In this document: positions 10,136 to 12,466 of the stretch, piece by piece
Position numbering within the stretch: position 1 is the stretch's first letter
Layout: the number at the start of each line of letters is the position of its first letter
Assembly: GCA_963737945.1 (NCBI GenBank)
Contig: CAVTUR010000004.1
Coordinates: 63,211 to 127,210 of the forward strand
Length of the DNA stretch: 64,000 nt
Source of the DNA: Blastocatellia bacterium
GTDB taxonomy: Bacteria; Acidobacteriota; Blastocatellia; UBA7656
Direction of reading: 5' to 3'
Made by a program: the position numbers and the translations under genes
Notes under the pieces: model-generated
Database searches by the model: none
Told to the model about the DNA's origin: nothing
The model's input: the letters and a program-made list of their open reading frames with translations, nothing else

Positions 10136-10208
10136 GTGATGCTGCAACCTACAGATCAGCCGCGCATCAACGTTTCGCGTTTCTTTGCATACCCACTTCG
10201 TGAGAAGT
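10136..10208 (-). repeat. Inverted copy of the ~77-bp REP-like unit, interrupted by the IS (continues at 11980-12004)
   Basis: Reverse complement reads ACTTCTCACGAAGTGGGTATGCAAAGAAACGCGAAACGTTGATGCGCGGCTGATCTGTAGGTTGCAGCATCAC, matching the 12039-12278 units. Confidence 0.9.
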
Positions 10209-10222
10209 TCTATGAAAGGGCT

Positions 10223-10228
10223 TGTCAA
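10223..10228 (-). promoter_or_regulatory. Outward -35 box (TTGACA) of the IS circle-junction promoter; the -10 (TAATAT) is at 11971-11976
   Basis: In-silico circularisation gives TTGACA-agccctttcatagaacg(17 nt)-TAATAT pointing into the transposase. Confidence 0.85.
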
Positions 10229-10371
10229 GAAAAAACTTTCCCCTGGCCGGCGGTCGATCTCCTTTTCTCCACAGCCAGCCCCCGGTGTGTGTTTGCCGCG
10301 CAACTTCAGCGATCGATGGACCTGAGCGCGAAAGGCCTGTGGTCGATAGACATAGACCTAGTAGTAGCCGT

Positions 10372-10520
10372 GCTGTGGGAACTGTGGAAAACTCGGAATG
10401 GAACGGAGTGGAATGGAGAGTTTTCCAAGCCGCTGTGGGAATGTGGAAAATCACTGAGGGATAGTCGCCCTTCCTTATGTTGATTTTCCACATTCCCACA
10501 GCGGCGTCAGTTTCCACAGC
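10372..10520. repeat. Nested palindromic (multi-stem) element inside the IS non-coding end
   Basis: Perfect 25-bp IR 10429-10453/10481-10505; TGGAAAACTC/GAGTTTTCCA at 10385-10394/10418-10427; outer GCTGTGGGAACTG/CAGTTTCCACAGC. Confidence 0.85.
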
Positions 10521-10629
10521 TTTCCCGCCTGCGTCGTGGCCGTTTTTACGTGTCTGCCGCATTCGACTGCAACTGCGTCGGTTCGTTTCCCTGAGTCATC
10601 CTTAAGCAGTTACCTGTTGCTATCCTTAG

Positions 10630-10812
10630 GAGGATGCTAACCACAGTTCTATCTGAGCCTTCTGCGCTACAGCTTTATCCGGTTAATGCGAGGGGGCATA
10701 TAGTGGGTCATGGTACTCAATGCGGTTCGCGCTTCGGCACAACTTCTCACTTGATACTCTCCCTCGACCTTTGCTCAGGCAACTCCGATCTGCAGTCGTT
10801 TGCTTGGTCACT
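10630..10812 (-). ncRNA. Predicted bridge RNA / seekRNA of the IS1111-type recombinase (ends approximate)
   Basis: Internal loop carrying GUGAGAAGU (rc 10742-10750) and UGACCCAC (rc 10703-10710), which match the two halves of the insertion target; second loop carrying AUAGAAC (rc 10646-10652), which matches the donor junction. Confidence 0.85.
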
Positions 10813-11898
10813 TCAGCCTGTCTGGTCGCCTGCGCTTTGTTCTGCTTGATTCACTCTTATGGGATCGAACTTTTCTCCTTTCTTCCAAACTGCCAACGAT
10901 ATTGCTGCGATCTTTCGGGCAACGGTTAACTGCGCCATTTCTGGTCGCATTTTGTTATCGATCAGTCTCTGGTAGTACTTGTTGAACGGTTCCCTCTTTA
11001 TCGCGGTGATTGCTGCTCCTTTGTATACAGCTTTCAACATCCGATTGAAGTTTTTGTTTAGTCCCCTGGTCTGCAGCGCCTTCTTTCGTCTTTGACGGCG
11101 TCCGTCTACTATCTCGTATTCGCCGCTCATGTGTGTCACTACCGCCAATCCACAGTACGCCCAGTATTGCCTCTTGGTCCGAAATCGATGTGGTGTCCCT
11201 ACCGTCGCGATAACGGTTGCTGCTCGGATCGCACCCAAACCCGGCACCTTACATTGAAGCTTGTATCCTTGATGCTTGTGTGCCTCATCAATCATTGCTT
11301 TGAGTGCCTCCTTGCTCAGCTCGTTCAAACTCTTCATCTGTTTGTAGAGAAGATCTGCTCGAGCCCGCAGTGATACGGTTTCTAGTTTCTCTTTCCACTC
11401 TTCACGCGTTTCCTGGCTGTAAACCGACTGACCCCGGCACGTTATCGCCCGCCCTCTGAACAGTCCTTTCAGTCGATTCTTTGTCCTCGTCCTGTCTTCC
11501 ACTAACCGAATGTATCCCTGAACCAATTCCTTCAGTCCTTTGATACTCTTGTCCCCGTGATAAACCGATTCCAGTTCTCCCAATCTCAAAAGCCTCGCTA
11601 GCTTCTTCGCATCAACTCGGTCCCCTTTGCTTCCTGACTGAATCAGCTTGTTCTTCCTAGGGTCGCAGACCACTGTTTTTGCCACTAACGGTCGCACGAT
11701 CTCGTACAACCATCCACTAGCGCATCCCTCCTCGAACGCTACGTGTACCCTCCCATCCAGACCTTTGAAAAACTGTCGGATTGCTTCCGCATTCATCCCC
11801 AGAAAAGTCTCCATCAAAAACTCACCTTTTTCGTCCGTTACGTACGCAACGATGGTTGATTTATCTACATCCAGTCCTACATACTTGTCTCTGTTCAT
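10813..11898 (-). CDS. IS110 family recombinase/transposase (DEDD RuvC-like domain plus C-terminal Tnp domain)
   Basis: YVGLDV, AFEE and KGDRVDA acidic residues; VPGLG; YCGL...SG catalytic serine; VARK. Confidence 0.95.
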   Translation of the reverse strand: MNRDKYVGLDVDKSTIVAYVTDEKGEFLMETFLGMNAEAIRQFFKGLDGRVHVAFEEGCASGWLYEIVRPLVAKTVVCDPRKNKLIQSGSKGDRVDAKKLARLLRLGELESVYHGDKSIKGLKELVQGYIRLVEDRTRTKNRLKGLFRGRAITCRGQSVYSQETREEWKEKLETVSLRARADLLYKQMKSLNELSKEALKAMIDEAHKHQGYKLQCKVPGLGAIRAATVIATVGTPHRFRTKRQYWAYCGLAVVTHMSGEYEIVDGRRQRRKKALQTRGLNKNFNRMLKAVYKGAAITAIKREPFNKYYQRLIDNKMRPEMAQLTVARKIAAISLAVWKKGEKFDPIRVNQAEQSAGDQTG

Positions 11899-12038
11899 AG
11901 GGCTTCTCCTCTCGCCTAGTCTTGACTTCTTTTACGCGTCAATAACTATCACGAAAGGGGCGGCCCTTTCATATTACGTGGGTCTGGTGATGTTCTAGCC
12001 TACGACGCACTCCACGGGGTGCCACACAGCCCGCAACA

Positions 12039-12278
12039 CCACTTCTCACGAAGTGGGTATGTGCAGAACGCGAGACCTTGGCGCGCGGTTGTAGGCTGCA
12101 GCATCACTTGACCCACTTCTCACGAAGTGGGTATGTGCAAAGGGAGACCTTGACGCGCGGCTGATCTGTAGGCTGCAGCATCACTTGACCCACTTCTCAC
12201 GAAGTGGGTATGTGCAAAGCGCGAGACCTTCGCGCGCGGCTGATCTGTTGTAGGCTGCAGCATCACTTGACCCACTTC
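12039..12278 (+). repeat. Tandem array of about 3.1 copies of a 73-82 bp REP-like unit with hairpin ACCCACTTC-TCAC-GAAGTGGGT
   Basis: Units start near 12039, 12111, 12188 and 12270; each also has GTAGGCTGCAGCATCACTTG. Confidence 0.92.
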
Positions 12279-12466
12279 ACACGTCTGCACCGCCAACTGT
12301 TGACAACTGGCGTGAGTCGCCGTATTAATGTCGAGACAAGGCACACACCCAAGGGAAATCGAAGTCAGACATTTGACCTGAAGCCCCCCAACGGTAAGTC
12401 CGGCTTCAAATTTGCAATATCTTTGAGGACGCAGGATTTGTTGGTCCGATGAAAGGGGGGAGTTGG

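What the first reader, a model, noticed from the sequence alone, without database searches (positions are those of the whole stretch)
10630..10812. Readable bridge/seek RNA programmed against the REP hairpin the IS sits in
Seen: directly downstream of the transposase stop, the minus-strand transcript has a 5' stem (about 10775-10797) and then a stem closed by 10689-10695/10761-10766. Its internal loop carries GUGAGAAGU (rc 10742-10750), 9/9 identical to the left target flank plus core (10200-10208). It also carries UGACCCAC (rc 10703-10710), complementary to core plus right flank (7/8 at this site, 8/8 in the array consensus). A second stem (UAACC/GGUUA) holds AUAGAAC (rc 10646-10652), complementary to the donor side GTTCTAT. 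The expected left donor guide matches only about 4/9 (GGAUAAAGC vs AUAUUACGU). Established: IS110/IS1111 recombinases use a bispecific RNA with target- and donor-binding internal loops, located downstream of the ORF in IS1111 types. Inference: this is an RNA-guided recombinase with a GT core and target GTGAGAA-GT-GGGTC(A). It may be an undescribed ortholog, and it may rely more on its subterminal IRs than on the left donor guide.
Basis: partly seen in the sequence, partly recalled or inferred. Interest (0 to 1): 0.92.

Follow-up and report, generated by a model that had tools for sequence, protein, structure and literature searches.

The report
RNA-guided insertion sequence in a repeat hairpin
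This is an intact jumping gene of the known IS110/IS1111 kind that carries its own guide RNA, whose loops spell out the repeat hairpin it sits in; it is a correct reading but an ordinary new member of a described system.

Summary
Window 10209-11979 is a 1771-bp IS110-family element. It has a 361-aa DEDD transposase (10813-11898, minus strand), 11-bp subterminal inverted repeats and a 604-nt non-coding region downstream of the ORF. It is inserted at GTGAGAA-GT|GGGTC in a REP-like hairpin.

The guide strings lie at the stated coordinates in two internal loops. About 120 related loci conserve the RNA scaffold while the guide positions vary.
- 5' target guide against its own flank: at least 7 of 9 matches in 68 of 81 elements, against 4% of non-self pairs.
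- 3' target guide: at least 6 of 8 in 77 of 93, against 8%.
- Donor-loop AUAGAAC follows the transposon end in 59 of 59 elements.
- Compensatory changes support the helices.

The guide order (top-strand match 5') is the published IS1111 order.

Corrections:
- The proposed "5' stem" is one strand of a long closing helix, so the RNA spans about 10559-10803.
- The 3' target guide is 7 nt, so this site matches fully.
- The weak fourth guide pairs discontiguously (5 of 7 positions typical) with little covariation.

Verdict: new member of a known kind, single copy, with no expression data. Interest is low to moderate.

The parts
10209..11979 (-). Whole insertion sequence, 1771 bp counting one copy of the GT (AC on the ORF strand) core. 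In ORF orientation the left end (LE) is at 11979 and the right end (RE) at 10209.
   Evidence: Flanks 10188-10208 and 11980 onward rejoin into one unit of the REP-like repeat seen intact at 12090-12224. The RE motif CTTTCATAGA|AC and the LE motif TATGAAAGG are conserved in relatives. It is single-copy in the genome.
10813..11898 (-). Transposase/recombinase ORF, 361 aa
   Evidence: PF01548 DEDD_Tnp_IS110 (5.4e-18) and PF02371 Transposase_20 (3.3e-12). NF033542 'IS110 family RNA-guided transposase', 147 bits against a cut-off of 140. D10, E57, D93, D96 and the Ser of GLAVVTHMSG align with the IS621 regions.
10559..10803 (-). Full structured non-coding RNA (about 245 nt). A long closing helix (10791-10803 with 10559-10571, extended by CCUGAG/CUCAGG) encloses the target-binding module, the donor-binding module and a small hairpin.
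   Evidence: pair I16. MFE -83.4 kcal/mol, z -2.66, 0 of 200 shuffles as good. RNAalifold on 10 close relatives; self 5'/3' flank duplex -40.8 against non-self -32.8 kcal/mol.
10754..10766 (-). 5' strand of the helix that closes the target-binding loop. Its partner is 10689-10699.
   Evidence: helix 1: 98% of cells paired, and 8 of 11 pairs have changes on both sides.
10742..10750 (-). 5' target guide GUGAGAAGU. It pairs with the ORF-strand core AC plus 7 nt of flank, and equals window + strand 10200-10208.
   Evidence: 9 of 9 here. In the family, self matches of at least 7 of 9 occur in 68 of 81 elements against 4.1% of 6404 non-self pairs. Complementarity drops to background at flank position 10.
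10703..10709 (-). 3' target guide GACCCAC (5 nt of flank plus the core).
   Evidence: 7 of 7 against 11978-11984. Family positions 1-7 are 0.88-0.99 identical and position 8 is 0.30. Self matches of at least 6 of 8 occur in 77 of 93 elements against 7.8% of non-self pairs.
10638..10685 (-). Donor-binding module: outer helix UAACC/GGUUA (10681-10685 with 10638-10642) and an inner stem-loop (10653-10672)
   Evidence: Helix 3 is 98.7% paired, with A-U changing to G-C in 12 sequences. Helix 4 is only partly supported (71%).
10646..10652 (-). Donor-loop 3' strand AUAGAAC, equal to the last 5 nt of the RE plus the core
   Evidence: The variant AUAGGAC occurs only with RE ...ATAGG|AC, concordant in 59 of 59 elements (51 A/A, 8 G/G). 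Core variants GC, CC, TC and CG change together in this strand and in the 3' target guide.
10672..10680 (-). Donor-loop 5' strand GGAUAAAGC, a candidate guide for the start of the LE
   Evidence: Ungapped test: self 4.92 against non-self 4.48 of 7. In the register C129:LE1 ... A122:LE7, five of seven positions are complementary in 78-96% of 46 elements, but almost without compensatory change. The window scores 4.5 of 7.
10211..10221 (.). Subterminal inverted repeat, RE side (TATGAAAGGGC). Its partner is 11963-11973.
   Evidence: pair I14: 11 nt, 100% complementary.
10223..10228 (-). TTGACA near the RE. Joined end to end with the LE it would give TTGACA-N17-TAATAT; the -10 box is at 11971-11976 on the minus strand.
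   Evidence: Read. CTTGACA is conserved before the RE in relatives. No sigma-70-like site was found in the integrated element, against 1.2 expected. Promoter function is inferred.
10200..10208 (+). Target half GTGAGAA plus core GT: 4 nt of hairpin loop and 5 nt of stem
11978..11984 (+). Second core copy GT plus target half GGGTC
10359..10520 (.). Clade-specific insert in the spacer between the RNA and the RE. It holds 7 GTGG(G/A)AA motifs and a perfect 25-bp hairpin (10429-10453 with 10481-10505). It is not part of the guide RNA.
   Evidence: present only in the window, L032 and L052 among 79 distinct spacers.

Best explanation
Window 10209-11979 is an IS1111-type member of the IS110 family.

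Proposed mechanism:
1. Its DEDD/Ser recombinase is guided by a structured RNA of about 245 nt, encoded directly downstream of the ORF.
2. One internal loop reads the target. A 9-nt 5' guide pairs with one strand (core plus 7 nt), and a 7-nt 3' guide pairs with the other strand (5 nt plus core). Together they specify the 14-bp site GTGAGAA-GT-GGGTC in a REP-like hairpin. The four loop bases fix the orientation.
3. A second internal loop reads the element's own joined ends. Its 3' strand AUAGAAC pairs with the right end plus the core. Its 5' strand pairs only discontiguously with the left end, which probably also depends on the 11-bp subterminal repeats.
4. After excision as a circle, the abutted ends would create a TTGACA-N17-TAATAT promoter that drives the ORF and the RNA.

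Shown here by sequence comparison: family membership, RNA scaffold, helices, and the covariation of three guide segments with DNA.

Inferred from published relatives: RNA-protein binding, the circle, the promoter and activity.
For: - Pfam and NCBIfam assign the protein to the family. A profile of the clade hits the IS621 and ISCro4 structures.
- The RNA region is found downstream of the ORF in 121 of 137 loci held (a few loci are duplicates or overlaps).
- Scaffold identity to the closest relatives is 74-84%, while only 1-5 of 12 guide columns are identical.
- Guide/flank covariation is strong.
- Donor-loop/RE covariation is concordant in 59 of 59 elements, and the core changes in step.
- The named structure is 89.9% paired, against 81.5% in shuffles and 46% or less when slid. 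17 of 26 pairs have changes on both sides.
- The top-strand match lies 5' of the bottom-strand match, as published for IS1111 seekRNAs (PMC11187229 sections 9 and 12).
- 24 perfect, unoccupied 14-mers exist in the genome.
- A metagenome contig carries identical IS sequence (10200-10322) next to a different REP-like flank.
Against: - There are no RNA data for this organism, and no listed run is RNA.
- The element is single-copy despite 24 perfect targets, so activity is unproven.
- The fourth guide segment shows almost no compensatory change.
- In the single-sequence MFE the two target guides partly pair with each other.
- Two pairs of the inner donor-loop stem are poorly kept: 23 and 26 of 76 sequences.
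- 13 of 81 relatives match their right flank in 6 or fewer of 9 positions. Copies in one genome sit at imperfect sites (G029).
- The transposase is 361 aa and has V where the published GL-P----SG motif has P.
Confidence: 0.9

Rival explanations
1. Same kind of element, but only the target-binding module (a short seekRNA of about 80-100 nt) is functional. The second loop would not be a donor guide, and the ends would be recognised by the protein through the subterminal repeats.
For: For ISEc11 the 82-nt short seekRNA sufficed for transposition (PMC11187229 section 10). The 5' strand of the second loop covaries poorly with the LE.
Against: AUAGAAC/AUAGGAC tracks the RE end in 59 of 59 elements. 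The core dinucleotide changes together in the donor loop, the 3' target guide and the DNA. The donor module and its outer helix are as conserved as the target module.
Confidence: 0.1
2. The element is of this kind, but this copy is an immobile relic.
For: It is single-copy although 24 perfect targets are free. No promoter-like site lies in the integrated copy.
Against: The ORF is open and the catalytic residues are kept. All scaffold helices, both ends and the -35 and -10 halves are intact. Identical IS sequence lies next to another flank in a soil run (one contig, depth 2.3).
Confidence: 0.2
3. The matches are pieces of target DNA carried inside the element, acting at the DNA level or by chance, and are not RNA guides.
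For: No RNA evidence was obtained here.
Against: The matches sit at fixed positions of a scaffold whose helices covary as RNA helices, including G-U pairs. One match is in sense and the other in antisense, as in the solved and tested systems. Non-self pairs reach 8 or more of 9 matches in only 1% of cases.
Confidence: 0.02

Closest known systems
IS1111-group elements with seekRNA (ISEc11, ISPa11, ISKpn4; Siddiquee et al. 2024, PMC11187229)
   Same: DEDD transposase. Subterminal inverted repeats. The long non-coding region lies downstream of tnp. Two short matches to opposite strands of the target overlap at the insertion point, with the top-strand match 5'. Close relatives with a conserved scaffold are naturally redirected. 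A promoter is split between the two ends.
   Different: At most 29% identity to any IS110-family protein on 72,556 plasmids. The host is from Acidobacteriota (record titles). The protein is 361 aa against the quoted 330-350. V replaces P in the GL-P----SG motif. A clear second internal loop covaries with the right end. A long closing helix is present.
IS621 bridge RNA (Durrant et al. 2024, PMC11208160; solved structures 8WT6 and others)
   Same: Two internal loops, one for the target and one for the donor, each reading both strands around a 2-nt core. One donor guide pairs discontiguously. The recombinase is of the same fold family (E 9e-13).
   Different: The RNA lies 3' of the ORF, not 5'. 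The order of the guides within a loop is reversed. The subterminal repeats are long. The core is AC/GT.
REP-targeting IS110-family elements such as ISPpu9 of Pseudomonas putida (PMC12288879; search listing and start of the abstract only; Tobes and Pareja 2006 seen only in a reference list)
   Same: Insertion into repetitive extragenic palindromes at one fixed position and in one orientation.
   Different: The repeat family and the host phylum differ. Here the guide covers the hairpin loop plus one arm.

Membership tests
IS110 family (DEDD transposases) | N-terminal DEDD/RuvC-like domain plus a C-terminal Transposase_20 domain | tested here: met
   PF01548 5.4e-18 and PF02371 3.3e-12. NF033542 147 bits against a cut-off of 140.
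IS110 family (DEDD transposases) | Catalytic Asp/Glu residues and the conserved Ser of the C-terminal domain | tested here: met
   D10, E57, D93 and D96 are invariant in 11 clade members. They align with IDTAK, IEATGT and NKTDTVDA of IS621. The Ser of ..THMSG aligns with ..YESG. The IS621 residue numbers are recalled, not taken from a call.
IS110 family (DEDD transposases) | Site-specific insertion without a long target duplication, with a 2-nt core at both junctions | tested here: met
   GT at 10207-10208 and at 11978-11979. The flanks rejoin to an intact repeat unit.
IS1111 group | Subterminal inverted repeats of 7-17 bp | tested here: met
   11 bp, 100% complementary, set in 2 nt from the RE-side junction (10211-10221) and 6 nt from the LE-side junction, core copy counted (11963-11973) (pair I14). 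The range is quoted from PMC11208160.
IS1111 group | The longer non-coding region, and the RNA, lie downstream of tnp | tested here: met
   604 nt downstream against 81 nt upstream. The RNA lies downstream in the relatives too.
IS1111 group | [quoted passage not shown] | tested here: met
   In ORF orientation GUGAGAAGU, which is complementary to the top strand, precedes GACCCAC, which is identical to it. The criterion comes from PMC11187229 sections 9 and 12.
IS1111 group | The transposase clusters with IS1111 relatives over its full length (330-350 aa, GL-P----S(t)G motif) | tested here: inconclusive
   No IS1111 reference sequences were at hand, so no tree was built. The length is 361 aa (clade 352-361). 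The motif reads GLAVVTHMSG, with V for P.
Bridge RNA / seekRNA | A target-binding internal loop whose two strands covary with the two target halves | tested here: met
Bridge RNA / seekRNA | A donor-binding loop whose two strands covary with the two element ends | tested here: inconclusive
   The 3' strand is met (59 of 59). The 5' strand is complementary at 5 of 7 positions but has almost no compensatory change.
Bridge RNA / seekRNA | The RNA is made, binds the recombinase and is required for recombination | not testable with these tools
   No RNA run is listed.

The most novel reading that the evidence does not exclude
The element may represent a deep, soil-Acidobacteriota lineage of IS1111-like recombinases.
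- It is at most 29% identical to any plasmid-borne family member.
- Its RNA combines IS621-like simple target and donor loops with the IS1111 guide order and a long closing helix.
- Only three of the four guide segments appear to be programmable. The left end would be read largely by protein through the subterminal repeats.
If so, it would be a distinct, compact 'three-guide' variant.
Probability: 0.25. Interest if true: 0.5.

Novelty: new member of a known kind. Interest (0 to 1): 0.3.

Why it matters
This is a clean, fully readable natural example of RNA-guided recombination in a poorly studied phylum. More than 60 naturally reprogrammed relatives define the guide lengths (9 + 7 nt, a 14-bp target) and show which donor positions are RNA-read. 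That is useful as an orthologue and dataset for people who engineer bridge recombinases. It also bears on the open question of how IS1111-type elements recognise their ends. It does not reveal a new mechanism.

Tried and rejected
- Rfam 15 at E <= 1 gave only sub-threshold miRNA-like hits on the 25-bp hairpin at 10426-10508. No bridge-RNA family matched.
- An exact-k-mer search for terminal repeats in relatives mostly failed. Conserved end motifs replaced it.
- The search for related loci on genome contigs with the single protein returned only 3 loci.
- RNAalifold on 76 sequences predicted only the target-loop helices. The donor-loop helices were therefore tested as a named structure.
- A local 5' hairpin at 10775-10797 was not found.
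- The ungapped test of the donor-loop 5' strand against the LE was weak: 4.92 against 4.48 of 7.
- Expression: no RNA holder is listed.
- Read laying used contigs only. The joint 10208->11986 in one X3 contig has a 23-nt side and repeats within the record, so it is another REP unit and not evidence of excision.
- The plasmid protein search found no close named IS. The named hits were ISHvo9, ISAzs32, ISEc45 and ISRel25 at 22-29% identity.
- ISfinder could not be queried.
- Supplementary files of the two 2024 papers, which list orthologues and predicted RNAs, were not consulted and might already include this clade.
- No structure or complex prediction was run, because none was needed for the claim.

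Full report
**What is there.** The minus strand of window 10813-11898 encodes a 361-aa protein. It carries the two Pfam domains of IS110-family transposases, PF01548 (5.4e-18) and PF02371 (3.3e-12). It passes the NCBIfam model 'IS110 family RNA-guided transposase', with 147 bits against a cut-off of 140. A profile of 11 clade members (A1) hits the solved IS621 and ISCro4 transposases at E 9e-13 and 9e-12. The acidic residues (D10, E57, D93, D96) and the C-terminal Ser align.

**Element boundaries.** The sequence left of 10209 (..CATACCCACTTCGTGAGAAGT) and right of 11979 (GGGTCTGGTGATG..) together make one unit of a repeat of about 77-82 bp. Intact units lie at 12016-12306 in the opposite orientation. 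The element is therefore 10209-11979, 1771 bp, with GT present at both junctions. It has perfect 11-bp subterminal inverted repeats (10211-10221 and 11963-11973). There are 81 nt upstream and 604 nt downstream of the ORF. It is the only copy of both ORF and RNA in the 7.3-Mb, 33-contig genome.

**The observation.** The single-sequence fold of 10600-10812 shows the CGAGGG/CCCUCG-closed module and the UAACC/GGUUA module.

**Relatives.**
- The protein was found in 13 of 61 related genomes at E <= 1e-20.
- With profile A1 it was found in 17 of 401 genomes sampled across the phylum at E <= 1e-60. Both counts include the window's own genome.
- It was found in 590 of 600 candidate metagenome stretches, of which the best 80 were kept.
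- The record titles of two genome hits name Acidobacteria/Pyrinomonadaceae MAGs.
- An nhmmer profile of the RNA core found it in 121 of 137 loci held, some of which are duplicates or overlaps. In every locus examined in detail it lies downstream of the ORF.

**Scaffold against guides.** Against the five closest relatives, non-guide columns are 74-84% identical. Only 1-5 of the 12 flank-reading guide columns are identical.

**Guide/target covariation.**
- 5' guide: 89 elements had both a 5' guide window and a right flank, 81 of them unique. The reverse complement of core plus 7 nt of flank matched the element's own guide 9/9 in 26, 8/9 in 22, 7/9 in 20 and 6/9 or fewer in 13.
- Among 6404 non-self pairs scored the same way (best register), 4.1% reached 7/9 and 1.0% reached 8/9.
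- 3' guide: of 93 unique elements, 15 matched 8/8, 40 matched 7/8, 22 matched 6/8 and 16 matched 5/8 or fewer. Among non-self pairs, 7.8% reached 6/8.
- By position (only elements passing 7/9 or 6/8, so values inside the scored spans are inflated), complementarity of the 5' guide falls from 0.82 at flank position 9 to 0.35 at position 10. Identity of the 3' guide falls from 0.88 at position 7 to 0.30 at position 8.

**The target.** The family's target is therefore 5 + 2 + 7 = 14 bp. On the window's + strand that is GTGAGAA-GT-GGGTC. The genome holds 24 perfect copies of this 14-mer and 35 with one mismatch, against 3 for the reversed control. The guide covers the four loop bases (GTGA against TCAC on the other strand) plus one arm, which explains orientation-specific insertion in a palindrome.

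**RNA structure.** RNAalifold on A2 predicted the helix closing the target loop and the base of its inner stem. A named structure with five helices was then counted.
- 89.9% of 1969 cells are paired, against a shuffled mean of 81.5% (0 of 500 shuffles as high) and 46% or less when the partners are slid.
- 17 of 26 pairs have changes on both sides.
- The target-loop outer helix is 98% paired (8 of 11 pairs compensatory) and its inner helix 87% (4 of 4).
- The donor-loop outer helix is 98.7% paired, with A-U changing to G-C in 12 sequences.
- The donor-loop inner stem is weaker at 71%. Two of its pairs are kept in only 23 and 26 of 76 sequences.
- The guide columns lie between helices.

**The closing helix.** The '5' stem' at 10775-10797 is not a local hairpin. 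In the 273-nt fold it is the 5' strand of a long closing helix with 10559-10602 (z -2.66, 0 of 200 shuffles as good; pair I16). RNAalifold on ten close relatives recovers part of this helix with different sequences. Across 74 elements, the duplex energy between an element's own 5' and 3' flanks averages -40.8 kcal/mol, against -32.8 for mismatched partners. 27 of 74 fall below the non-self 5th percentile.

**Donor loop, 3' strand.** The strand AUAGAAC equals the last 5 nt of the right end plus the core. The right end is ...CTTTCATAGA|AC in most relatives. Where the end is ...ATAGG|AC, the RNA reads AUAGGAC. In the non-redundant set this is concordant in 59 of 59 elements (51 A/A, 8 G/G). Lineages with another core change this strand and the 3' target guide together:
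- GC in L145;
- CC in L141 and L120;
- TC in L140 and L130;
- CG in the L149 group.

For L141, L120, L140 and L130 the right junction itself was not captured.

**Donor loop, 5' strand.** GGAUAAAGC is a different case. An ungapped best-register test gave self 4.92 against non-self 4.48 of 7. In the register suggested by mutual information, five of the first seven left-end positions are complementary in 78-96% of 46 elements. One core base is complementary after a one-base bulge. Two positions are mismatched in 85% of elements, and compensatory change is nearly confined to one position (A:T in 31, T:A in 5). The window scores 4.5 of 7. Pairing with the left end is therefore possible and discontiguous, as reported for one IS621 donor guide (PMC11208160, passage). 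It is not demonstrated by covariation.

**Other features.** Joining the ends would give TTGACA (10223-10228, minus strand), a 17-nt spacer and TAATAT (11971-11976, minus strand). This is read. CTTGACA is conserved before the right end in relatives. The integrated element has no sigma-70-like site, against 1.2 expected. Function of this junction promoter is inferred from published relatives (PMC11187229 section 12).

**Comparison with what is known.**
- Siddiquee et al. 2024 (PMC11187229; outline and sections 6, 9, 10, 12, 13 and 14 read) showed that IS1111-type elements have subterminal repeats and a downstream non-coding region. The region yields a transposase-bound seekRNA with a top-strand match 5' of a bottom-strand match, and natural redirection occurs among relatives. 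All of these are seen here.
- Durrant et al. 2024 (PMC11208160; passages only) predicted bridge RNAs in the right end of 93% of IS1111 elements.
- REP targeting by this family is in print (ISPpu9; search listing only).
- The finding is therefore a new member of a known kind.

**What is particular here.** The transposase is remote from named elements: at most 29% identity among 893 matching plasmid records. The donor loop is a simple internal loop, whereas a multi-loop is noted for many IS1111 members. There is a long closing helix, and the fourth guide is degenerate.

**Limits.**
- There are no RNA data.
- Activity is unproven for a single copy. The only hint of mobility is one low-depth contig (X1, depth 2.3) with identical IS sequence next to a different REP-like flank.
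- ISfinder and the papers' supplements were not available.

Noticed in passing
L129 2690-3326 (metagenome relative): A 261-bp segment is tandemly repeated at least 3 times. It runs from just after the core of the 3' target guide, through the donor loop and spacer, to the right end. The right end plus core is joined directly to the DNA that follows the guide's core. This looks as if the recombinase used the guide-encoding DNA, which is identical to the left target half, as a pseudo-target. L130 41-121 and L162 993-1074 also carry extra partial copies that hold only the donor loop.
   Followed up: partly
window 10359-10520; L170 1450-1520 (= G000 C2:92831-92893): An insert lies in the spacer between the RNA and the right end. 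It has 3 forward and 4 reverse GTGG(G/A)AA motifs and a perfect 25-bp hairpin. Among 79 distinct spacers it occurs only in the window, L032 and L052, and the hairpin arms differ between them. The same motif pair lies about 40 nt after a truncated IstB_IS21 C-terminus elsewhere in the genome (Pfam 9.7e-11). It is probably a remnant of IS21-type terminal repeats or a miniature element..
   Followed up: partly
window 11950-11973 (minus strand): The left-end subterminal repeat is one arm of a local hairpin, GAAAGGG-CCGC-CCCTTTC, which the scan flags as terminator-like. It would sit at the very 5' end of a transcript from the junction promoter. The second arm plus the following bases (CCCTTTCGTGATAG) resembles the right end (CCCTTTCATAGA). 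The same arrangement shows in relatives' left ends.
   Followed up: no
window 12016-12306 and 10136-10208: An array of REP-like units of about 77-82 bp (hairpin CCCACTTC-TCAC-GAAGTGGG) adjoins the element. The interrupted unit is inverted relative to the array. The genome has 46 such hairpins, 42 of them with loop TCAC or GTGA, clustered in arrays on several contigs.
   Followed up: partly
L038, L046, L051, L053, L055 (five copies in genome G029): The copies have identical guide RNAs but different right flanks. Only L038 matches 9/9. The others match about 5-8 of 9 by eye and share ..GCATGCAG. This suggests looser site choice, or a target family that the guide matches imperfectly.
   Followed up: no
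window 10200-10322, run X1: A 165-nt soil-metagenome contig is identical to the right end of the element. It continues into a different REP-like flank (..TATACTCACTTCG). The same IS therefore occurs at another repeat unit, or in another strain (depth 2.3, a single contig).
   Followed up: no
relatives L145, L141/L120, L140/L130, L149 group: The 2-nt core is not fixed in the family. It is AC in most members and GC, CC, TC or CG in some. When it changes, the donor-loop strand and the 3' target guide change with it.
   Followed up: partly
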